Assembly (NCBI GenBank): GCA_947589495.1
Contig: CANQAK010000004.1
Span: 1 to 62,344 of the forward strand
Direction of reading: 5' to 3'
From: an uncultured Bacilli bacterium
GTDB taxonomy: Bacteria; Bacillota_I; Bacilli_A; RF39; UBA660
Length of the DNA: 62,344 bases
The notes under the pieces were generated by a model, which was not told where the DNA came from, ran no database searches, and was given only the letters and a program-made list of their open reading frames with translations. Positions within the stretch are counted from its first letter, which is position 1. Every line of letters starts with the position of its first letter. Below, in pieces: positions 28,679 through 39,919 of the stretch. A program made the translations under genes and the position numbers.

Positions 28679-30394
28679 TTACCTTCCCATTATACTATTT
28701 TTTATTTTAACATAATCAGTAGCACCAATTGAATTATTATTATCAGCATCAGCTGCTAAACTTTGTGAAATATTTAATTCACTACCAGATTTTTCCATAA
28801 TATAATTTTTGATTTTAACATAATCGGTAGCACCTATTCCACCATCACCATCGACATCCCCTTTTACAACAATTGTATAATTAGCAGTTTCACTACCATT
28901 ACTAATTGTTATAACTTGTCCAGTTTTAATAATCGAATCATCACTAGCACCACTTACACTAACTGAATAACCATTTAATTTATTTTTAATATCAGATATT
29001 TTTGAATTTATTTCAAAGCCTATTAAACACCCTTGTTGTACTGAAACATTTATATTATTTAATGCACTATTTATACCAGCTGAATTATCAGAACTAGTTT
29101 TAACATTATCAGATCCACCACTTGCCCAAACTAATCCTTCTAAGATAGGACTTTCAGCACTACTACTTGCTCCTATATTAAAGAAATTAAATAATCCTTT
29201 ATAAGTTACCCCTTTATAAGTAAATTCTGCTCCACTAGTAGCTTTTGAACCATTATTACCTGATTCTTGTTTAGCTAAACTAGCTAAATAAACAGGACTC
29301 ATATTAGCAGTTTTTCCTGCTTCAACAAAGATATCAGCATAAGACATATTATCCAAGAAAGAATATTCTGCCATAAATGTTCCTTTTAAAACAGATTGAA
29401 CAACTGTTGATGTATAATTATCACTATAAGTCAAAGATTCAAACATTAATATTCTTTCAGCATTTAAGAAATTTCTTGGATCTAAATAATAACTTACAGT
29501 TTCTCTATTAGCAATATACCAACCATTTTCAGTTTGAATACGACTTCCACTAGATAAATCATAATATTTATCTCCACCTTGAATAGAACTTAAACTTTTT
29601 TCAGCGGTAACAGCACTATTAAAATCTAAATTAGTATGAAGTGCTTTAAAAGTCCAATTTGGATAACTATTATGAATAAGTCTTAATTTACATTTATAAC
29701 TTTCTGGAAATTGTTGAGTATTTAAAGCACTTTCAAATGCTTGATCAGATAAAGCATTTTGACATGAATTATCAATATCTTTTCCAGGTAGATAAGTATA
29801 ATCTGGCATATTATTAAATACGGGAATAGTAAACTCAAGTGGTAAACTTAATAAATTATTTTCTTTATAACTTTTATAACTTGTGTATGCTTCTGAATAT
29901 GGCGCTGCTAAATTAGCCATATATTGATGATTATATACTTTATATGATCCATTTGGATTAACATTAAATTTCTTTAAATAAGAAGTGAATTGTCCTTTAC
30001 TTATATAAGAAGATGAAATAAATTTAGCTCCTCCAACTATTGCACTTTTAGGACTTGTCCAAGGTCTATCATAAATATCTCCTGAAACATTTCCTGATTC
30101 ATCAATTAAAGATGTATAATCTCGACAAACATATCCTGTTTTAGTTCCTTCATAATATATTTGATACCATCCATTAGAACAAGAATCATTACTTTTCGTA
30201 ATATTATTATTAACTAAACTATATTCAGCATTTTTATTTAATTTTTTAATTATTGAATAATTTGTACCTGCACCACTTCGTAAATTAACATCAGTTCCCA
30301 CTATTTTTAAACGACTTTGAGCATAACAAAAATTCATACTTAGTACGAATAAAAAACAACTAAATAACATAATATTTAAATGTCTTATCTTCAT
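28679..30394 (-). CDS. secreted SH3b - N-acetylglucosaminidase - dockerin protein (putative autolysin)
   Basis: It has a signal peptide, an SH3b-like segment (VNLRSGAGTNYSIIKKL) and a glucosaminidase core (FVEAGKTANMSPVYLASLAKQESG). Two C-terminal dockerin-type repeats are present: GDVDGDGGIGATDYVKIKNYIM and ADADNNNSIGATDYVKIKNSIM. Confidence 0.7.
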   Translation of the reverse strand: MKIRHLNIMLFSCFLFVLSMNFCYAQSRLKIVGTDVNLRSGAGTNYSIIKKLNKNAEYSLVNNNITKSNDSCSNGWYQIYYEGTKTGYVCRDYTSLIDESGNVSGDIYDRPWTSPKSAIVGGAKFISSSYISKGQFTSYLKKFNVNPNGSYKVYNHQYMANLAAPYSEAYTSYKSYKENNLLSLPLEFTIPVFNNMPDYTYLPGKDIDNSCQNALSDQAFESALNTQQFPESYKCKLRLIHNSYPNWTFKALHTNLDFNSAVTAEKSLSSIQGGDKYYDLSSGSRIQTENGWYIANRETVSYYLDPRNFLNAERILMFESLTYSDNYTSTVVQSVLKGTFMAEYSFLDNMSYADIFVEAGKTANMSPVYLASLAKQESGNNGSKATSGAEFTYKGVTYKGLFNFFNIGASSSAESPILEGLVWASGGSDNVKTSSDNSAGINSALNNINVSVQQGCLIGFEINSKISDIKNKLNGYSVSVSGASDDSIIKTGQVITISNGSETANYTIVVKGDVDGDGGIGATDYVKIKNYIMEKSGSELNISQSLAADADNNNSIGATDYVKIKNSIMGR

Positions 30395-31029: not shown

Positions 31030-31158
31030 TTGAAAGGAGCACAAAGTGCTTTTATTAAAGTCTTTTTAGTAATTATTTTTATTTTGCTATACATTATTAT
31101 TATATTAGTTATTAAAAACGGCCGTCTGCTTAATGTTGTTATACAACATTTAAATTAG
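31030..31158 (+). CDS. diverged third copy of small hydrophobic ORF (weak start)
   Basis: It occupies the same relative position as the 34-codon ORFs at 32835 and 34608. It encodes a 42-codon hydrophobic peptide (..FIKVFLVIIFILLYIIIILVIKNGR..) only from a TTG start. The well-placed AAGGAG+GTG at 31046 opens only a 7-codon frame. It may be decayed. Confidence 0.2.
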   Translation: MKGAQSAFIKVFLVIIFILLYIIIILVIKNGRLLNVVIQHLN

Positions 31159-31190
31159 CAATGAAACACATTTTCCAGACGGTGTAAAAC

Positions 31191-31276
31191 TCACGCTTCC
31201 TAATATTTAGGATACTCTATTTTTATATATTACAATCTTGTTTTGAATATTAAACTGAAGAAGTTTAATATTTTTT
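31191..31276. repeat. partial copy of the distal part of the ~0.5 kb inter-paralogue spacer
   Basis: cacgcttcctaatatt...tactctatttttatat(at)attacaat...tgaatattaaactgaagaagtttaatat is shared with 32978..33062 and, in its left part, with 34751..34798. Confidence 0.8.
31246..31272. other. AT-rich perfect hairpin 5 nt beyond the stop codon of paralogue 1
   Basis: aatattaaac-tgaagaa-gtttaatatt forms a 10-bp stem with a 7-nt loop. No U-run follows on the gene strand. Confidence 0.7.
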
Positions 31277-32533
31277 CTAACTTTTTATGTAGAATGGATC
31301 GGAACTTGTCCCTGCTCCCCCTAATTCTATATCAGACGTTAGATAGAAGACTGGGCGAATCGCATACGTATATTTCAAGGTGTTGTCGCTGATTCCGCCA
31401 AACTGATTCACAAACCACGCTTGGTAGAAAGGGTCCGAGCTACTCCATAGACCAATTCGCGACATGGTCCATTCATAGTCCGATGTTGTTCCCCCATTTT
31501 TTGAAATATGCATCCAGCCATTGTTTATACATTTTTGATATGTTTCTTGCCCTAAACGCATATGACAATTTGTTACGTTTGCTTGATAATAGTAATCATG
31601 TAAATATATTAATCCTATTGGTGCAGTATCACTCATTTGTTTCCATTTCTGATCTGTTATTAATTTATAATCTTTATCATAATATTGGGGTGCATCTTGT
31701 CCAGTCTCTATTCTATATGTTTGATCTGCACTTTCGATTAATGTTTCCTCATAATCATATCCTATATCTCCATACCACCATTCTTGTGGCTCTATTTTTC
31801 CTTTTATTTCTTCATTTAATGTACTTAAGAATGAATTACCATTTGTATTTAATTCTTTAAATAAGTCACTTTCTGGCCATTCGGGACAATCTCCTCCTTC
31901 ACAATAAACGTTAGTAGATGGGTCCACACTATATTTTGCATTCCATGCTTTTGTCCCTATGCTTTTTTGTTTCATCACTTTAATATTTCCTTCTGGAGTG
32001 ATTCCAATGATTCGATACATTTCATTAGATCCTGATGCACAATTTGCTTGTCCTATTTGCTTTAGGCATATATAGTTATTTACATTTGTTCCTTGATATC
32101 TATACATTCCTCCAACTAAATCTATACTCAATCCACTATCTGCTTGACTTTGTAGTGTTTGTAATGTTTGTGGTACTTTATCAAAATATAAATAACAATA
32201 TGATGTTTTATTTGTACTTACTGTTACTTTATTATTTTCCAAATCATATTCTAAACTGTTTTCTATTTTTTCTCCATTATTATCCATACATCCTGATTTT
32301 TCTTCATTTAACATATAACCTTCTCCTGGAAAACTTGATTCTTCTTTATACTGTCCATCTGTGCCTTTTACCATTATGGCAAACATACTATTTTTTTCTA
32401 CATCTACTACATCTTTTAACTTTACTTCATCTAATTGTGTTTGATATGCCGTATGTTTATGACATATTAAAAAGGTACTTACTGTTAGTATTACTCCTAT
32501 TACAAATATTACTGTAGTTTTTCTTTTCTCCAT
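31277..32533 (-). CDS. variable surface protein paralogue 1 (signal-anchored, C-terminal lectin-like domain with hypervariable segment)
   Basis: The track ORF starts at GTG 32545. The ATG at 32533 (MEKRKTT, GGTGA 8 nt upstream) matches the start of paralogue 2. Motifs shared with the other copies: GGMYRYQG, MYRIIGITPEGNIKVMKQ, CPEWPESD, WWYGD, GLIYLHDYYYQ, GWMHISKN, EWTMSR and RPVFYLTSDIELGGAG. Confidence 0.8.
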   Translation of the reverse strand: MEKRKTTVIFVIGVILTVSTFLICHKHTAYQTQLDEVKLKDVVDVEKNSMFAIMVKGTDGQYKEESSFPGEGYMLNEEKSGCMDNNGEKIENSLEYDLENNKVTVSTNKTSYCYLYFDKVPQTLQTLQSQADSGLSIDLVGGMYRYQGTNVNNYICLKQIGQANCASGSNEMYRIIGITPEGNIKVMKQKSIGTKAWNAKYSVDPSTNVYCEGGDCPEWPESDLFKELNTNGNSFLSTLNEEIKGKIEPQEWWYGDIGYDYEETLIESADQTYRIETGQDAPQYYDKDYKLITDQKWKQMSDTAPIGLIYLHDYYYQANVTNCHMRLGQETYQKCINNGWMHISKNGGTTSDYEWTMSRIGLWSSSDPFYQAWFVNQFGGISDNTLKYTYAIRPVFYLTSDIELGGAGTSSDPFYIKS

Positions 32534-32602
32534 TATATAATTCACCTTTTCTTTTTGTTAATAACTTACTATTATTTATTAACTCATCTATCCTATATGG
32601 TT

Positions 32603-32629
32603 ATTATATAATACCCCCCCCGGAGTCAA
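32603..32629 (-). promoter_or_regulatory. candidate sigma-A promoter of paralogue 1 with (G)8 in the spacer
   Basis: The minus strand reads TTGACT (32624..32629) - CC GGGGGGGG TATTA - TATAAT (32603..32608). The spacer is 15 nt. The homopolymer is at 32614..32621. Confidence 0.6.
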
Positions 32630-32834
32630 GTTTTAAAATTTATTTTGTTGTTAATTTTATGTTTTTTTTAAACATTCCATTTTTCTTGTGTCTTATTTTG
32701 ACTGGTTTTGTCGAAAGTATTTACAAATAAAAAATCCTATTATTTAATAGAGACTTATGGAAGTGTTGGTACTGACGTCACCTTTAAACTGATTTTCAGG
32801 GGGATTTATTTCTCAGGAAAGAGGTGAGACGGTT

Positions 32835-32939
32835 ATGAAAGCAAAAACTTTAAATAAGTTATTGTTATTAATAATAATAATTTTGTCCATTATTATTTTA
32901 ATAGACAAATTAAAAGACGTCGTCCTTATAGTAGGATAA
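32835..32939 (+). CDS. 34-aa hydrophobic peptide (candidate type I toxin-like small protein), copy A
   Basis: ATG with AGAGGTGA 7 nt upstream. The peptide is MKAKTLNKLLLLIIIILSIIILIDKLKDVVLIVG: a charged N-terminus, one TM helix and a charged tail. It is conserved at 34608..34712 with only hydrophobic substitutions. A candidate promoter TTGACT lies at 32698..32703. Confidence 0.5.
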   Translation: MKAKTLNKLLLLIIIILSIIILIDKLKDVVLIVG

Positions 32940-32987
32940 CGTCTATCTAAATATATAATTTAGGTGACGTGAAATATCACGCTTCCT
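32907..32987 (-). ncRNA. candidate antisense RNA overlapping the 3' end of small ORF A
   Basis: The minus strand carries a TTGTAA (33017..33022) - 17 nt - TATACT (32994..32999) promoter. Downstream are hairpin gcgtga-tat-ttcacgt, then hairpin 32915..32944 (agacgttatcc/ggacgacgtct) followed by UUUUAAUUU. It could alternatively be the 3' UTR and terminator of paralogue 2. Confidence 0.35.
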
Positions 32988-33033
32988 AATATTAGTATAC
33001 TCTATTTTTATATATATTACAATTCTTTTTTGA

Positions 33034-33058
33034 ATATTAAACTGAAGAAGTTTAATAT
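33034..33058. other. AT-rich perfect hairpin 5 nt beyond the stop codon of paralogue 2
   Basis: atattaaac-tgaagaa-gtttaatat forms a 9-bp stem with a 7-nt loop. It is the same element as 31246..31272. Confidence 0.7.
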
Positions 33059-33062
33059 CTTT

Positions 33063-34319
33063 CTAACTTGCTATGTAGAATGGTTCAGTTGTTGATCCTG
33101 CTCCTCCTAATTCTATATCGGATGTTAAATAGAATACTGGACGAACCGAATATTCATTTTTCAAGCTGTCCTTGCCGACACTGCCACTCGAAGTCACACG
33201 CCACGCATAGAAGTAAATACTTGAGCTTTCAGCTCGACCTATACGGGACATGGTCCATTCAGCTTGCTCGTTATCCGTAAATGAATTATCATTTTTTGAT
33301 ATGTGCATCCAACCGTTATCTTTACATTGTGTATGTGTATTGTTATCATAATGACAGATATTTGATGTTGATTGATAATAATAATCATGTAAATATATTA
33401 ATCCTATTTTTGCTTTGCTATTCATTTTTGCCCATTTTCCTGTTTCTATTGCTCCTTGTTTTAGTTTTGGATAATATTGACTGTCTACTTGACCTGTTTC
33501 TATTTGATATATTTCATCTGCTGTTTTATTTGCATAATCATAGTTTATATCACCATACCACCAATCCCAATCTTCTATTTTATTTTTTATATCACTAGAT
33601 AAATTACTTAAGAATGAATCACTATCTGCGTTTAATGTTTTATATATTTCACTATCTGGCCATTCTGGACAGCCACCATCATCACATTTGTATTTCTCTG
33701 TGGACGTTTTTTCATCATATTTTGTATTCCATACGAATGTATTTGTTCCATTATTTGTATATTTTGTTTGTTTCATTACTTTTATATTTCCTTCAGGAGT
33801 GATTCCTATGATTCGATACATTTCATCTGTTTTTTCTTTACAATTTGTATTATTTAAACTTCCTAAACAAATGTAATTATTTACATCTGCACCTTGGTAT
33901 CTATACATTCCTCCAACAGGATTTGTACTTAAACCACTGCCTTCTTTTCTTATATCGTCTACTGACAATTGTTTATCAAAATACAAATAACAATATGATG
34001 TTTGCCCTGTACTTACTATTACTTGTTGACTATCTTCATCATATGATAAACTATTTGGTATTAACTCGTTATTATTATCCATACACCCTGATTTATCTTT
34101 ATTTAGTTTGTAACCTTTTTCTGGAAAACTATCACTTGGTGCATATTCTCCATTTTCTTTTACCATTATTGCAAACATATTATTATCTTTTATATCTTTT
34201 AATTTTACTTCATCTAATTGTGTTGTTTGATATGCCGTATGTTTATGACATATTAAAAAGGTACTTACTATTAACATTACTCCTATTACAAATATTATTG
34301 TTGTTTTTCTTTTCTCCAT
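33063..34319 (-). CDS. variable surface protein paralogue 2
   Basis: 418 aa. It has the same architecture and motif islands as paralogue 1. The first ~40 aa are near-identical. Confidence 0.8.
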   Translation of the reverse strand: MEKRKTTIIFVIGVMLIVSTFLICHKHTAYQTTQLDEVKLKDIKDNNMFAIMVKENGEYAPSDSFPEKGYKLNKDKSGCMDNNNELIPNSLSYDEDSQQVIVSTGQTSYCYLYFDKQLSVDDIRKEGSGLSTNPVGGMYRYQGADVNNYICLGSLNNTNCKEKTDEMYRIIGITPEGNIKVMKQTKYTNNGTNTFVWNTKYDEKTSTEKYKCDDGGCPEWPDSEIYKTLNADSDSFLSNLSSDIKNKIEDWDWWYGDINYDYANKTADEIYQIETGQVDSQYYPKLKQGAIETGKWAKMNSKAKIGLIYLHDYYYQSTSNICHYDNNTHTQCKDNGWMHISKNDNSFTDNEQAEWTMSRIGRAESSSIYFYAWRVTSSGSVGKDSLKNEYSVRPVFYLTSDIELGGAGSTTEPFYIAS

Positions 34320-34391
34320 ATTATATAATTCACCTTTTCTTTTTTGTTAATAACTTACTATTATTTATTAACATCTCTATCTTATAAGGTT

Positions 34392-34419
34392 ATTATATAA
34401 TACCCCCCCCCGGAGTCAA
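34392..34419 (-). promoter_or_regulatory. candidate sigma-A promoter of paralogue 2 with (G)9 in the spacer
   Basis: The minus strand reads TTGACT (34414..34419) - CC GGGGGGGGG TATTA - TATAAT (34392..34397). The spacer is 16 nt. The homopolymer is at 34403..34411. Confidence 0.6.
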
Positions 34420-34607
34420 GTTTCAATTTTTATTTTGTTGTTAACTTTATGTTTTTCTTGTGTCTTATTTTGACTGGTTTTGTCGAAAGTATTTACAAAT
34501 AAAAAATTCTATTATTTAATAGAAACTTATGGAAGTGTTGGTACTGACGTCACCTTTAAACTGATTTTCAGGGGGATTTGGTTCTTCAGAAAAGAGGTGA
34601 GACGGTT

Positions 34608-34712
34608 ATGAAAGCAAAAACTTTAAATAAGTTCTTGTTATTAATTATATTAATTTTGTTACTATTTATTTTAGTAGACAAATTAAAAGACGTCGTCCTT
34701 ATAGTAGGATAA
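34608..34712 (+). CDS. 34-aa hydrophobic peptide (candidate type I toxin-like small protein), copy B
   Basis: The peptide is MKAKTLNKFLLLIILILLLFILVDKLKDVVLIVG. It has the same RBS (AGAGGTGA) and the same N- and C-terminal residues as copy A. A candidate promoter TTGACT lies at 34470..34475. Confidence 0.5.
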   Translation: MKAKTLNKFLLLIILILLLFILVDKLKDVVLIVG

Positions 34713-34760
34713 CGTCTATCTAAATAAATAATTTAGGTGGCGTGAAATATCACGCTTCCT
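34680..34760 (-). ncRNA. candidate antisense RNA overlapping the 3' end of small ORF B
   Basis: The minus strand carries TTGTAA (34790..34795) - 17 nt - TATACT (34767..34772). Terminator-like hairpin 34688..34717 is followed by a U-rich run. No large gene lies upstream on this strand, so here a read-through 3' UTR cannot explain it. Confidence 0.4.
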
Positions 34761-34828
34761 AATATTAGTATACTCTATTTTTATATATATTACAATATCT
34801 TGTTTTAGCATTTACATTTCAAAATTAT

Positions 34829-34861
34829 AAAAAAAATAATTTTACTTTGCTAGTAAAATTA
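34829..34861 (-). terminator. intrinsic terminator of the lipoprotein gene
   Basis: A 10-bp stem, taattttact (34837..34846) with agtaaaatta (34852..34861), is followed by a U8 run on the minus strand. Confidence 0.75.
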
Positions 34862-34863
34862 CT

Positions 34864-35403
34864 TTAATTAACATCATAATTATAGACACCATGAATTTTT
34901 AATAAATCGTTTTCAGTAGGTTGTTCTACAACATACTCTTTATCTTCTTTAGATACTGTAAATGTAATTGTATAATCTACTTTATCAGTAGTATCTTTCA
35001 TTTTATCTAATTTAAAATCCATATATTTTTCAACACTATAATCGCCATTCTCATCATTAAATTCTTCACGATTATTTTCTAAATATATTGAAGCATCATC
35101 TTGAGCTTTATATAAATCATATACAGTAATTTTTACAGTAACATAACTTACATCATTATCATATTCTTCCTCTAAAATTTCATAACTTAGATCTTTATAT
35201 TGTTTTTTTAAAATATCACGATATTTATCTTTTTGAGATTCACTTAAACTTTCTTTATCAACAACACTTTCTAAATCAACTAAAACTTCACTATCTAAAG
35301 ATTTATATTTTTTTAAATAAGTATCAACTGCCCCTCTTGCAGTATCTTTTCCACAACCAGTAAGAAGAACTAAAACTAGAAACAATGCCCATAACTTTTT
35401 CAT
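34864..35403 (-). CDS. lipoprotein, function unknown
   Basis: 179 aa with a signal peptide and lipobox LLTGC. The mature part is acidic. Confidence 0.65.
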   Translation of the reverse strand: MKKLWALFLVLVLLTGCGKDTARGAVDTYLKKYKSLDSEVLVDLESVVDKESLSESQKDKYRDILKKQYKDLSYEILEEEYDNDVSYVTVKITVYDLYKAQDDASIYLENNREEFNDENGDYSVEKYMDFKLDKMKDTTDKVDYTITFTVSKEDKEYVVEQPTENDLLKIHGVYNYDVN

Positions 35404-37152: not shown

Positions 37153-37175
37153 AACTTTATGTTCTATTTTTTTTT
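37151..37175 (+). terminator. intrinsic terminator of uppP
   Basis: Hairpin agaac-tttat-gttct is followed by a T-run. Confidence 0.6.
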
Positions 37176-37185
37176 AATAAAAAAA

Positions 37186-37244
37186 GGGAGTTAGTTAGAC
37201 TCCCAGGGTTAAGTTAAGTCTATTTTAACGTCTTCGTTGACGAG
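37186..37244. repeat. structured ~60-nt 3' element, copy 1 (orphan)
   Basis: gggagTtagttagActccc agggttaagttaagtctattttaacgtcttcgttgacgag. Relative to copies 2 and 3, the first hairpin keeps its stem while the loop differs. Confidence 0.8.
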
Positions 37245-37378
37245 TAAATAAAAATTCATTTACTTATAGTATTTTATAATATTTATTATTATTTGTAAAT
37301 CCTAAATTTTTATACACTTATATTGTATCAATTTTATTGAATAATGTAAAATACTTTTAATAATATTTCATAAAAAAA

Positions 37379-37438
37379 GGGAGGTCGTTACTTCTCCCAG
37401 GGTTAAGTTAAATCTATTTTAACGTCTTCGTTGACGAG
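37379..37438. repeat. structured ~60-nt 3' element, copy 2 (directly downstream of paralogue 3)
   Basis: gggaggtcgttacttctccc agggttaagttaaatctattttaacgtcttcgttgacgag. On the minus strand, GGGAG..CTCCC followed by a U-run acts as a terminator for 37466..39598. Confidence 0.8.
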
Positions 37439-37465
37439 TTTTTTTTATTTTACTTATTTAGTATT

Positions 37466-39598
37466 TTATGAATTTGCTATGTAGAATGGTTCTGAGGTTG
37501 TACCTGCTCCTTCTAACGTTATATCAGAGGTTAGATAGAAGACTGGTCGTACATCATTCTTAGCCTCTAAGCCGTTTCCGTTGACACTGCCTTCCTGATT
37601 TACGATCCACGTATTAAACCAATCGTACGCTCTATCTCGACCAACACGAGTCATCGTCCATTCATAATTCGACGTTGTTTCTGCATTTTTACTCATATGC
37701 ATCCAACCATTATCTTTACATACTCCAGATTGGTTAGTTTTAGGATGACAATTATCTGATGTTGATTGATAATAATAATCATGTAAATACATTAATCCTA
37801 TTTTTGCTTTATTACTCATTTTTTGCCATCTTCCTGTTTCTACTTCACCAGTTACCCTTTTTGGATAATAATGGCTATCTAGTTGACCTGTTTCTATCTT
37901 CCAAATCTCTTTCGCTGATGTATTTGCATAATCAATATATATATCTCCATAATACCATTCCCAGTCTTCAATTTTATTCTGTATTCCACTAGTCAATTTA
38001 CTTAAAAACGAATCACTATTTCCGTTTAATGTTGTGTATATAGTACTTGCTGGCCATTCCGGGCATCCTCCACCTAGTCCACATGTTGAATCTTTATAGT
38101 TTGTATTCCATGCATATTTTCCTATACTTGTTTGTTTCATTACTTTTATATTTCCTGATGGTGTTACTCCTATAATTCTATACATATTATCATCGTAGCC
38201 ATTTTCTTTTGCACTAGTACATTCATTTGATCCTACTCCGCTCAAACATATAAAGTTGTTTACATTATTACCTTTTAATGTGTCTGTTCCTTGATATCTA
38301 TATATTCCTCCGACTAATGTCGAACTTAATGTTTTTGTTGTATCTTTACTTCTTAATGTGTTTTCTAAATCTGTTACTATTGTAAATGGTTCTTCTAATG
38401 TTCCTTTTCCTTCTACTTCTATATCATTTTTCAAATAGAAAACAGGGCGAACCACATACATATTGTTTAACTCATTCCCGCCAGCCACAACACCATTCGG
38501 GTTCACACTCCACGCACGGAAAATAGAACCAGTGGTACCACTCCGACCCTCACGCGACATAGTCCATTCTATATCAGATGATGTTCCTCCATTCTTTGAT
38601 ATATGCATCCATCCTTGACTTACACAATCTTCATAATTATTATTTTTTGTGCTATGACAACTCTCTTGGTTTGCTTGGTAATAATAATCATGTAAGTACA
38701 TTAATCCTATATTGGCTTTTTCTTCCATTTGAATCCATCTTTTGTCTGTTACTTCTTCTTTATTATTTGAATTATGTCCATAGTATTTTGTATCTTTTTG
38801 ACCTGTTTCTACTTGATATACTTCATTTGCTATTAGTGTTCCTACAAAATTAAAGTGCATATCACCATACCACCACTTTTGGGGTTCTATTTTATTTTGT
38901 ATATTTTTATCTAATGTATTATAAAATGTATTATTTAATGTTGTAAATATATCACTTTCTGGCCATTCTGGACAACTATCATCTCCACACTTTGAATCAT
39001 TAGAATTTTCGTTCCATCTATATTTACTTGTTCCACTATTTGTAAATTTTGTTTGCTTTATTATCTTTATATTTCCTTCTGGTGTTACTCCAATTATCCT
39101 GTACATATCATCACTTTGATTTAAACAATCACTTCCTAAACATATATAATTATTAACTTTATCATTTGTTCCTTGATATCTATACATTCCTCCGATTAAA
39201 ATTTTACTTAATGTATTTGTTGTGTCAACTTCTCTTAATTGTTTTACCATTTTAGATTCTTTGTCAAAATATAAATAACAATAGGATGTTTTATTTGAAA
39301 TAAGTGTTACTTTATTACTTTCTGAATCATATGTTAAACTGTTTTCAATTTTGACTCCATTATTATCCATACATCCTGATTTTTCTGTATTTAATACATA
39401 ACCTTTTTCAGGAAACGTCGATTGTTCAGTATATTCTCCACTATCATTTTGAAGCATTATCGCAAACATATTATTTTTTTCTACTTCTTTCAAACTTACT
39501 GTATCCAATGTTGCATTTGCCGATTTATTTTTGTTTATAAAAACTATACTTGTTGTTAATAATAATATTAATATAGAAATTATTCCAATTTTTTTCAT
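37466..39598 (-). CDS. variable surface protein paralogue 3 with two tandem C-terminal modules
   Basis: 710 aa: a signal anchor plus N-domain, then two complete copies of the GG(M/I)YRYQG...RPVFYL...EPF(T/Y)I module. The first ends near aa 410 at EPFTIVT. Each module has its own hypervariable segment. Confidence 0.8.
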   Translation of the reverse strand: MKKIGIISILILLLTTSIVFINKNKSANATLDTVSLKEVEKNNMFAIMLQNDSGEYTEQSTFPEKGYVLNTEKSGCMDNNGVKIENSLTYDSESNKVTLISNKTSYCYLYFDKESKMVKQLREVDTTNTLSKILIGGMYRYQGTNDKVNNYICLGSDCLNQSDDMYRIIGVTPEGNIKIIKQTKFTNSGTSKYRWNENSNDSKCGDDSCPEWPESDIFTTLNNTFYNTLDKNIQNKIEPQKWWYGDMHFNFVGTLIANEVYQVETGQKDTKYYGHNSNNKEEVTDKRWIQMEEKANIGLMYLHDYYYQANQESCHSTKNNNYEDCVSQGWMHISKNGGTSSDIEWTMSREGRSGTTGSIFRAWSVNPNGVVAGGNELNNMYVVRPVFYLKNDIEVEGKGTLEEPFTIVTDLENTLRSKDTTKTLSSTLVGGIYRYQGTDTLKGNNVNNFICLSGVGSNECTSAKENGYDDNMYRIIGVTPSGNIKVMKQTSIGKYAWNTNYKDSTCGLGGGCPEWPASTIYTTLNGNSDSFLSKLTSGIQNKIEDWEWYYGDIYIDYANTSAKEIWKIETGQLDSHYYPKRVTGEVETGRWQKMSNKAKIGLMYLHDYYYQSTSDNCHPKTNQSGVCKDNGWMHMSKNAETTSNYEWTMTRVGRDRAYDWFNTWIVNQEGSVNGNGLEAKNDVRPVFYLTSDITLEGAGTTSEPFYIANS

Positions 39599-39654: not shown

Positions 39655-39683
39655 ATTATAATCGTAAAATGCTACGATGTCAA
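39655..39683 (-). promoter_or_regulatory. consensus sigma-A promoter of paralogue 3
   Basis: The minus strand reads TTGACA (39678..39683) - 17 nt - TATAAT (39655..39660). An AAGGAG RBS precedes the ATG at 39598. There is no homopolymer. Confidence 0.65.
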
Positions 39684-39700
39684 TAAGGAGTTTAAAAAAT

Positions 39701-39919
39701 ATGAAAATAGATGTTAAAAAGTATAAAACAAATGAAATATTTAAGTTTATAAGACAAGCTACTAATTTGACTCAAGAAGAATTAGCTAAAAAAGTTAATA
39801 TTAGTAAAAGTTCTATTGAGAAATATGAATATGGTACTGTTAATTATACATTTGAAACGCTTGTTAAAATAGCTAAAGCTTGTGATTTAGATATATTTAT
39901 AGTAAGTAAAAAGAAATAG
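39701..39919 (+). CDS. XRE-family helix-turn-helix transcriptional regulator
   Basis: The HTH_3 pattern is FIRQATNLTQEELAKKVNISKSSIEKYEYG. The track start is 39677. The ATG at 39701 with AAGGAG 10 nt upstream is preferred. Confidence 0.7.
   Translation: MKIDVKKYKTNEIFKFIRQATNLTQEELAKKVNISKSSIEKYEYGTVNYTFETLVKIAKACDLDIFIVSKKK

What the first reader, a model, noticed from the sequence alone, without database searches (positions are those of the whole stretch)
34392..34419. Sister promoter with (G)9: direct evidence that the tract length has changed between duplicated copies
It has the same TTGACT / TATAAT elements and identical flanks as 32603..32629, with nine G at 34403..34411 and a 16-nt spacer. 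The surrounding spacer is almost identical between the two units. The 1-nt difference therefore falls exactly at the homopolymer, as expected for replication slippage rather than ordinary point divergence. Independent tracts on two paralogues would allow combinatorial ON/OFF expression of antigenically different surface proteins.
Basis: partly seen in the sequence, partly recalled or inferred. Interest (0 to 1): 0.8.

Follow-up and report, generated by a model that had tools for sequence, protein, structure and literature searches.

The report
Poly-G promoter switch on surface-protein genes
Two neighbouring genes for membrane-anchored surface proteins each sit behind a near-perfect promoter whose spacing is set by a run of 8 or 9 G, and the same promoter is copied up to 26 times per genome in related uncultured gut bacteria, so it is very probably a slippage-driven on/off switch of a known kind in a new group of organisms.

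Summary
On the minus strand, 34419..34392 reads TTGACT-CC-G9-TATTA-TATAAT (16-nt spacer). The sister site, 32629..32603, is the same with G8 (15 nt). These are the only G/C runs of 7 or more in a 62-kb window of 24% GC.

Each promoter drives a 418-aa paralogue with an N-terminal membrane anchor and a predicted enlarged C-type-lectin-like ectodomain.

The exact 19-nt flanks plus a G run recur 56 times in the window and at least seven related assemblies, mostly uncultured rabbit-gut Bacilli MAGs, with up to 26 copies per MAG. Every downstream ORF long enough to compare belongs to this one protein family. Tract lengths are G8 ×40, G9 ×15 and G7 ×1, never 10 or more.

Ordinary promoters in these genomes use 17- or 16-nt spacers, not 15. 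G9 is therefore probably permissive and G8 probably weak or off.

The promoter, leader and signal anchor are 85-97% identical between the two window units. The mature coding part is only 48-80% identical.

The mechanism is the known promoter-spacer homopolymer type (porA, tp0126). No read-level or expression evidence for switching could be obtained. I class it as a new member of a known kind, of moderate interest.

The parts
34414..34419 (-). -35 hexamer TTGACT of the G9 promoter
34403..34411 (-). G9 homopolymer in the promoter spacer (C9 on the + strand). The spacer CC+G9+TATTA is 16 nt.
34392..34397 (-). -10 hexamer TATAAT of the G9 promoter
34320..34391 (-). Untranslated leader of about 66-72 nt. 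It carries the conserved AAGTTATTAACA motif (34345..34356) and the Shine-Dalgarno sequence AAAGGTG. It is 90-93% identical to the leader of the sister unit.
33063..34319 (-). Gene B, 418 aa. It has an N-terminal transmembrane anchor, a small beta domain and an enlarged C-type-lectin-like domain.
32624..32629 (-). -35 hexamer TTGACT of the sister (G8) promoter
32614..32621 (-). G8 homopolymer; the spacer is 15 nt
32603..32608 (-). -10 hexamer TATAAT of the sister promoter
31277..32533 (-). Gene A, 418 aa, a paralogue 57% identical to gene B
37466..39598 (-). Third paralogue, 710 aa, with two tandem ectodomains. It has no G tract. Its promoter is TTGACA (39683..39678), 17 nt, TATAAT (39660..39655). 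It serves as an internal control.

Best explanation
This is a contingency (phase-variable) promoter. A G homopolymer sits in the spacer between a consensus -35 (TTGACT) and a consensus -10 (TATAAT). Slipped-strand mispairing during replication adds or removes a G, which changes the distance and angle between the two hexamers. With G9 the spacer is 16 nt, a length that ordinary promoters in these genomes also use. With G8 it is 15 nt, a length they do not use. With G10 it would be the optimal 17 nt. I therefore infer that gene B (G9) is transcribed at a moderate level and gene A (G8) is weak or off, and that each can switch independently. The promoter, leader and signal anchor form a conserved cassette placed in front of a fast-diverging family of membrane-anchored, C-type-lectin-like surface proteins. 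Related genomes carry up to 26 copies, so a population could display many different combinations of these proteins. Shown: the anatomy, the copy number, the length polymorphism, the spacer usage and the predicted fold. Inferred: the switching rate, the dependence of transcription on tract length, and the biological role.
For: (1) The promoter scores 11 of 12 with a 16-nt spacer, the best in the region. The only two G/C runs of 7 or more in 62 kb of 24% GC DNA lie in this same context. (2) The exact core TTGACTCC-Gn-TATTATATAAT occurs 56 times: in the window, in ENA contigs L001, L137 and L138, and in five GTDB species-representative rabbit-gut Bacilli MAGs. The tract is G8 in 40, G9 in 15 and G7 in 1. 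One MAG has 11 G9, 14 G8 and 1 G7. (3) In 375 kb of these loci every G/C run of 7 or more lies in the cassette, and the run-length distribution is bimodal: 5 runs of 6, then 1, 39 and 14 runs of 7, 8 and 9. (4) In the 26-copy MAG, tract length is the most variable position of the cassette. Its minor fraction is 0.38, against at most 0.19 for the first 27 leader columns. (5) With the cassette masked, TTGACA-like/TATAAT pairs in these genomes peak at spacers of 17 (29-30) and 16 (12-23), while 15 sits at background (5-7). Family members without a tract have 17- or 16-nt AT-rich spacers. (6) Every downstream ORF long enough to compare belongs to one family with an N-terminal anchor. The AF2 model has pLDDT 87.7, and its best PDB match is the T. 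ramosa IgAse, whose N-terminal domain is an enlarged C-type-lectin-like domain. (7) The 5' module is 85-97% identical between the two units, and the mature coding part is 48-80% identical. (8) The same mechanism is established experimentally for N. meningitidis porA and T. pallidum tp0126 (PMC7864442).
Against: There is no read-level evidence of length heterogeneity within a population, and no transcription data. Only three lengths occur and the presumed optimum, G10, is never the consensus, so the tract could be more constrained than a free-running switch. The exact conservation of the whole spacer (CC and TATTA as well) is more than a pure spacing device needs. The copies were retrieved with a pattern that required exact flanks, so flank conservation is partly built in; however, no variant-flank copy with G6 or longer turned up in the same loci. 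Some contigs have low coverage (3-6x by their names), so individual 8-versus-9 calls could be wrong.
Confidence: 0.65

Rival explanations
1. The G tract is a static promoter element. It is a fixed, selected part of the spacer, for example a site for a regulator or a stiff DNA segment that tunes promoter strength. G8 and G9 are then ordinary, slowly fixed differences between paralogues, and there is no high-frequency reversible switching.
For: The whole 28-nt core, including CC and TATTA, is invariant across species. Lengths are confined to 7-9 and never reach 10 or more. A further conserved motif, AAGTTATTAACA, about 40 nt downstream hints at additional control.
Against: G/C runs of 8-9 are intrinsically slippage-prone in every bacterium where this has been measured (established knowledge; T. 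pallidum tracts of 8 or more were 76% variable). Tract length is the most polymorphic position of the cassette within one genome. A regulator site would not tolerate length change in a quarter of the copies.
Confidence: 0.2
2. The 8-versus-9 difference in this window is a homopolymer miscall or consensus artefact of a metagenome assembly, so the two promoters are really the same length.
For: The related contigs come from short-read metagenome assemblies, some at 3-6x coverage by their names. The cassette is a repeat that breaks assemblies: 29 of 54 copies lie within 150 nt of a locus end.
Against: Both lengths recur in independent assemblies and MAGs, as 15 G9 and 40 G8. The window contig is 62 kb and passes straight through both copies. 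Short-read consensus errors at 8-9-nt homopolymers are uncommon (general knowledge).
Confidence: 0.1
3. Expression is varied mainly by recombination, not slippage. The conserved leader motif AAGTTATTAACA, with its near-palindrome GTTAnTAAC, would be a site where promoters are exchanged between family members, as at the vis and vrs sites of Mycoplasma vsp and vsa loci.
For: The motif is conserved at the nucleotide level in four lineages, although it is untranslated in the window and coding in two different frames elsewhere. The family genes lie in tandem arrays.
Against: No recombinase gene was identified next to the array in the window (covering nine neighbouring ORFs only). Every family gene with the motif already has its own promoter, so promoter shuffling is not needed. 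One MAG (bin46, 20 copies) lacks the motif but keeps the G tract.
Confidence: 0.05

Closest known systems
Neisseria meningitidis porA and Treponema pallidum tp0126: a poly-G tract between -35 and -10
   Same: A G homopolymer lies in the spacer of a sigma-70-type promoter of a surface-protein gene. Expression is optimal when the spacer is 17 nt and falls as Gs are lost (as summarised in PMC7864442).
   Different: Those are single genes in Gram-negative or spirochaete pathogens with experimental proof. Here one cassette is copied up to 26 times per genome in uncultured low-GC gut Bacilli, the observed spacers are 14-16 nt and never 17, and nothing has been measured.
Treponema pallidum tpr family (tprE/G/J/F/I/L): poly-G tracts upstream of paralogous surface-protein genes
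   Same: It is a multigene family of putative surface proteins in which several paralogues each carry their own poly-G of 7-12 in the promoter region, with length-dependent transcription.
   Different: In tprL the tract overlaps the -10 region and does not change the hexamer spacing. The T. pallidum genome is GC-rich, so G runs are common there, whereas here they are confined to the cassette.
Mycoplasma hyorhinis vlp genes: poly-A in the promoter spacer of a variable lipoprotein family (from my own knowledge, not read here)
   Same: It is a tandem multigene family. The promoter, leader and signal peptide are highly conserved and the mature regions are divergent. Each gene switches independently through a homopolymer in the -35/-10 spacer, which gives combinatorial surface coats.
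   Different: The vlp tract is poly-A, the products are lipoproteins with tandem-repeat regions, and the host is wall-less. Here the tract is poly-G, there is no lipobox (FLIC is not a lipobox), the domain is a globular lectin-like fold, and the organism encodes cell-wall enzymes.
Bordetella pertussis fim2/fim3/fimX: poly-C tracts in the promoters (from my own knowledge)
   Same: Paralogous surface-structure genes each carry their own homopolymer in the promoter, which allows independent serotype switching.
   Different: Those promoters depend on the activator BvgA, and the tract sets the distance between the activator site and the -10. No activator is implied here.

Membership tests
Promoter-spacer homopolymer phase-variation locus (porA / tp0126 / vlp type) | A homopolymer of about 7 nt or more lies between recognisable -35 and -10 hexamers | tested here: met
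   TTGACT-CC-G9-TATTA-TATAAT at 34419..34392 and the G8 sister site
Promoter-spacer homopolymer phase-variation locus (porA / tp0126 / vlp type) | Single-unit length changes move the spacer across the boundary of the functional range | tested here: met
   G8, G9 and G10 give 15, 16 and 17 nt. With the cassette masked, promoter-like pairs in these genomes are enriched at 16 and 17 nt but not at 15. Tract-less paralogues use 16 or 17 nt.
Promoter-spacer homopolymer phase-variation locus (porA / tp0126 / vlp type) | Tract length is polymorphic between copies, strains or species while the flanks stay constant | tested here: met
   56 copies: G8 in 40, G9 in 15, G7 in 1. The flanks were fixed by the search pattern, but no variant-flank copies were present in the same loci.
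Promoter-spacer homopolymer phase-variation locus (porA / tp0126 / vlp type) | Length changes are reversible and frequent within a clonal population | not testable with these tools
   Sequencing reads are not available. No second assembly of the same locus was found: P0001 has one member and one contig, and the nearest cassette-bearing relatives are at most 72% identical.
Promoter-spacer homopolymer phase-variation locus (porA / tp0126 / vlp type) | The level of transcription depends on tract length | not testable with these tools
   This needs reporter fusions, RNA-seq or in vitro transcription.
Promoter-spacer homopolymer phase-variation locus (porA / tp0126 / vlp type) | The controlled gene encodes a surface-exposed or secreted product | tested here: met
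   This is by prediction only. An N-terminal helix (residues 2-31) is followed by a linker and a confident globular ectodomain (pLDDT 87.7). The Foldseek match is to the IgAse of T. ramosa (E 2.5e-5), whose N-terminal domain is C-type-lectin-like.
Mycoplasma-type variable surface lipoprotein family (Vlp/Vsp/Vsa) | The 5' module (promoter, leader, signal peptide) is conserved and the mature regions are divergent, in tandem arrays | tested here: met
   The 5' module is 85-97% identical and the mature part 48-80%. Tandem arrays are seen in the window and in L009 and L044.
Mycoplasma-type variable surface lipoprotein family (Vlp/Vsp/Vsa) | A lipoprotein signal peptide with a lipobox cysteine | tested here: not met
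   The N-terminus MEKRKTTIIFVIGVMLIVSTFLICHK has Ile at position -1 and Leu at -2 before the Cys. That is not a lipobox by the established L-[AST]-[GAS]-C rule. Other members have no Cys at all.
DUF6273 (PF19789) / C-type-lectin-like fold | A match to the Pfam model at or above its threshold | tested here: inconclusive
   P0001 gives no Pfam hit. Only 8 of 65 family members match weakly, best E 3e-4. The fold match to the IgAse and the weak matches to the Lcl C-terminal domain and to C-type lectin domains support the fold, not membership.

The most novel reading that the evidence does not exclude
A clade of uncultured, very low-GC gut Bacilli carries a 'phasome' built from one portable poly-G promoter cassette. 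Up to 26 copies per genome each sit in front of a different member of a rapidly diversifying lectin-like surface-protein family. Individual cells would then display stochastic combinations of dozens of surface proteins. That would be a mycoplasma- or Neisseria-style antigenic and adhesive variation system in a walled gut commensal Firmicute, a group where phase variation has so far been ascribed mainly to invertible promoters.
Probability: 0.5. Interest if true: 0.65.

Novelty: new member of a known kind. Interest (0 to 1): 0.5.

Why it matters
If the tracts do switch, these uncultured gut Bacilli run one of the largest promoter-level contingency systems known: 20-26 independently switchable genes from a single conserved cassette. 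It would control lectin-like surface proteins related in fold to the N-terminal domain of a gut-bacterial IgA protease. That would extend homopolymer promoter switching from classical pathogens to gut commensal Firmicutes. It would also give a simple sequence signature (TTGACTCC-Gn-TATTATATAAT) whose length spectrum can be read directly from metagenomic reads to follow surface-coat dynamics in the host. Finally, it explains why these genomes assemble poorly at these loci.

Tried and rejected
- **Same-locus comparison across samples.** This failed. The window protein has no second contig. NCBI-only relatives P0006, P0014 and P0025 are not on record. The relatives seen in two samples (P0023, P0031) lack the cassette.
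- **Cassette pattern in JGI/ENA metagenome contigs.** It gave 0 hits. The two viral-contig scans also gave 0, so the cassette is not phage-borne.
- **Distant homologues.** Eighty loci from other gut metagenomes (23-33% identity) have no promoter G runs. The tract is therefore clade-specific and not a feature of the protein family.
- **Sequence-family searches.** Pfam and NCBIfam gave no family for the two proteins. A PDB sequence-profile search gave nothing.
- **Rfam.** It found nothing in 32500..34900, so no known riboswitch or leader is present.
- **Leader hairpin.** It is weak (z -1.6) and I did not pursue it as a regulatory structure.
- **Alternative hexamers for the G8 copy.** Shifted -35 positions, or TATTAT or TATATA as the -10, give no acceptable promoter by inspection.
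- **Invertible-promoter reading.** I found no convincing inverted repeats flanking the promoter. The upstream and downstream AAGTTA..AACAAAA similarity exists only in the window lineage.

Full report
**1. The observation**

The + strand of the window carries C9 at 34403..34411 and C8 at 32614..32621. On the minus strand the first site reads TTGACT (34419..34414), CC, G9, TATTA, TATAAT (34397..34392). That is a 16-nt spacer and an 11-of-12 match to the sigma-70 consensus, the best promoter-like site between 30900 and 35000.

The window is 18-30% GC. Only 0.27 matches to a run of seven C/G are expected by chance, and the only two tracts found are these, both preceded by the same TTGACTCC.

One correction is needed. 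The flanks are identical only for 12 nt upstream and 15 nt downstream of the tract. Beyond that, the two intergenic units differ by about ten substitutions, an A5/A6 indel in the leader and an 18-nt indel upstream. The single G is thus one of several differences in DNA that is about 8-10% diverged.

**2. What the promoters drive**

Each promoter lies about 70 nt upstream of a minus-strand ORF: 33063..34319 and 31277..32533, both 418 aa and 57% identical to each other. A third paralogue at 37466..39598 (710 aa, two tandem ectodomains) has no G tract. It has a textbook TTGACA-17-TATAAT promoter and a divergent XRE-type HTH gene next to it.

- Neither Pfam nor NCBIfam recognises the proteins.
- An AlphaFold2 model built on 65 homologues is confident (pLDDT 87.7, pTM 0.80). 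It shows an N-terminal helix (residues 2-31), a disordered linker, a small beta domain and a large alpha/beta domain.
- The only significant PDB match is the Thomasclavelia ramosa IgA peptidase (9qa6, E 2.5e-5, 329 aligned columns). Weak matches follow to the Legionella Lcl C-terminal domain and to C-type lectin domains.
- The depositors describe the N-terminal domain of that enzyme as an enlarged C-type-lectin-like domain resembling Lcl (PMC12237041).
- The proteins have no HExxH motif by inspection.
- The residues before the Cys (F-L-I-C) do not form a lipobox, so I read the N-terminus as a signal anchor.

The products are therefore best described as membrane-anchored, lectin-like surface proteins of unknown ligand.

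**3. The promoter is a multicopy, clade-wide cassette**

Scanning one genome per GTDB species with TTGACTCCGGGGG-N(0-12)-TATTATATAAT returned 49 loci. All come from five uncultured rabbit-gut Bacilli MAGs: 26 copies in Lapin-027 bin69, 20 in Lapin-005 bin46, 3 in Lapin-024 bin107, and one each in two others. Three further copies came from ENA contigs that encode close relatives (L001, L137, L138). With the two window copies this makes 56 copies.

- **Tract lengths.** G8 occurs 40 times, G9 15 times and G7 once. The pattern would have accepted up to 17 nt, but nothing longer than 9 was found.
- **Specificity of long runs.** In 375 kb of these loci every G/C run of 7 or more lies inside the cassette. 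The run-length distribution is bimodal: 326 runs of 4, 59 of 5 and 5 of 6, then 1, 39 and 14 runs of 7, 8 and 9.
- **Assembly breaks.** More than half of the copies (29 of 54) lie within 150 nt of a locus end, so the cassette breaks short-read assemblies.
- **Downstream genes.** Every downstream ORF long enough to compare falls into one protein family with the window proteins. Identity to P0001 is 27-59%, and all have a charged N-terminus plus a hydrophobic anchor.
- **Flanks.** Upstream flanks and leaders differ between lineages.
- **Family members without the cassette.** Of 27 complete family ORFs in these loci, 23 have the cassette. The other four have ordinary AT-rich spacers of 16 or 17 nt.
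- **Distribution.** Eighty loci encoding distant relatives (23-33% identity) from other gut metagenomes carry no promoter G run. The cassette is also absent from viral contigs. The tract is therefore an innovation of one clade and not a property of the protein family or of a phage.

**4. Evidence bearing on mechanism**

(a) *Mutability.* Within the 26-copy MAG the leader is nearly invariant, with a minor-allele fraction of at most 0.19 over the first 27 columns. Tract length has a minor fraction of 0.38, so the tract is the most changeable position of the cassette.

(b) *Spacing.* With the cassette masked, TTGACA-like/TATAAT pairs in the window and related loci peak at 17 nt (29-30 pairs) and 16 nt (12-23 pairs). 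Fifteen nt sits at background with 5-7 pairs. G9 (16 nt) therefore falls inside the range these organisms use and G8 (15 nt) falls outside it. No alternative hexamers rescue the G8 copy. I infer that G9 is permissive and that G8 and G7 are weak or off. G10 would be optimal but is never the consensus, which fits a family in which most members are silent most of the time. It is equally a caveat.

(c) *Family architecture.* Between the two window units, the intergenic region, promoter, leader and first ~35 codons are 85-97% identical, and the mature coding part is 48-80% identical. No two cassette-bearing proteins from closely related assemblies exceed 72% identity. A conserved expression module in front of a rapidly diversifying ectodomain is the signature of variable surface-antigen families.

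**5. Comparison with known systems**

The mechanism matches the promoter-spacer homopolymer class. For N. meningitidis porA and T. pallidum tp0126, poly-G between -35 and -10 gives optimal transcription at a 17-nt spacing. The T. pallidum tpr paralogues each carry their own variable poly-G (PMC7864442). In architecture the closest analogue is the Mycoplasma hyorhinis vlp family, which has poly-A in the spacer and a conserved 5' module (from my own knowledge). The products here are not lipoproteins, so membership of that protein family is excluded, though not the resemblance in how it works.

Literature searches for DUF6273 and for simple-repeat phase variation in gut Firmicutes found no description of this system. 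I therefore class it as a new member of a known kind.

**6. What remains unproven**

No reads were available, and no second assembly of the same locus exists in the collections. High-frequency reversible switching and length-dependent transcription therefore remain inferences.

- The main rival is a static, selected spacer element. The complete invariance of CC and TATTA and the narrow 7-9 range speak for some constraint beyond spacing.
- An assembly miscall could explain the single 8-versus-9 pair in the window, but not the recurrent polymorphism across assemblies.
- Recombination at the conserved leader motif AAGTTATTAACA is possible as an additional layer, but nothing found here supports it.

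**7. Verdict**

The finding is real, and its interpretation is largely right but understated in one respect and overstated in another. It is not a private duplication with a chance indel. It is one instance of a clade-wide cassette with up to 26 copies per genome. The window pair alone is weak evidence of slippage. Confidence in the phase-variable-promoter explanation is 0.65, and interest is 0.5.

Noticed in passing
window 32835..32939 (+) and 34608..34712 (+), with minus-strand promoter-like sites at 33022..32994 and 34795..34767: Each duplicated unit also carries a divergent 34-aa, very hydrophobic ORF with a strong Shine-Dalgarno sequence: MKAKTLNKLLLLIIIILSIIILIDKLKDVVLIVG and MKAKTLNKFLLLIILILLLFILVDKLKDVVLIVG. 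A TTGTAA-17-TATACT site on the opposite strand would give an RNA antisense to the ORF's 3' end. That antisense stretch folds well (z -3.67). The layout resembles a type I toxin-antitoxin module, but there is no Pfam or Rfam match.
   Followed up: partly
window 31030..31275: This looks like a third, divergent copy of the small-ORF/antisense module. It has a hydrophobic reading frame (...FLVIIFILLYIIIILVIKNGRLLNVVIQHLN) whose start is unclear, followed by the same conserved CACGCTTCCTAATATT...TATTACAAT tail as in the two units.
   Followed up: no
window 34345..34356 and 32556..32567 (-); also L001, L137, L138, and the bin69, bin22 and bin107 loci: The motif AAGTTATTAACA(AAAAG), containing the near-palindrome GTTAnTAAC, lies about 40 nt downstream of the -10 and is conserved at the nucleotide level across lineages. 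It is untranslated in the window. It codes MQVINKK in bin69 and MSKLLTKRK, in another frame, in P0006 and P0019. In bin107 and bin22 it lies in short upstream ORFs. Its function is unknown; it could be an operator, an RNA element or a recombination site.
   Followed up: partly
window 39677..39919 (+) next to 37466..39598 (-); L133 and L134: Family members that lack the G tract often have a divergent XRE-type HTH gene immediately upstream (HTH_3, E 1e-13, in the window; HTH_19/HTH_3 in L133 and L134). This suggests two alternative control modes within one protein family: repressor-controlled and homopolymer-controlled.
   Followed up: partly
window 37172..37266 and 37366..37460: Two direct copies, 75% identical and 194 nt apart, of a 95-nt element lie between bacA and the third paralogue. 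The element contains a GGGAG...CTCCC hairpin and a CGTCTTCGTTGACG hairpin. It has not been identified.
   Followed up: no
L002-L050 (rabbit-gut Bacilli MAG contigs): 29 of 54 cassette copies lie within 150 nt of a contig or locus end, and some contigs begin or end inside the cassette. The roughly 100-nt conserved promoter and leader is a major cause of assembly fragmentation in these MAGs, so copy numbers per genome are lower bounds.
   Followed up: partly
L016, L025, L026 (bin22, bin107): Cassette-driven family members in these MAGs have N-termini ending in ...VVGTTYAFFS or ...GATYAYFN. From memory these resemble SipW-dependent (TasA-type) signal peptides, which would mean a different export or anchoring mode for the same ectodomain family.
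   Followed up: no
window 28679..30394 (-): A 571-aa protein combines an SH3_3 domain, a glucosaminidase-like region (weak SagB match) and a C-terminal type I dockerin. This is an unusual pairing of a cell-wall hydrolase with a dockerin in a genome of 24% GC.
   Followed up: no
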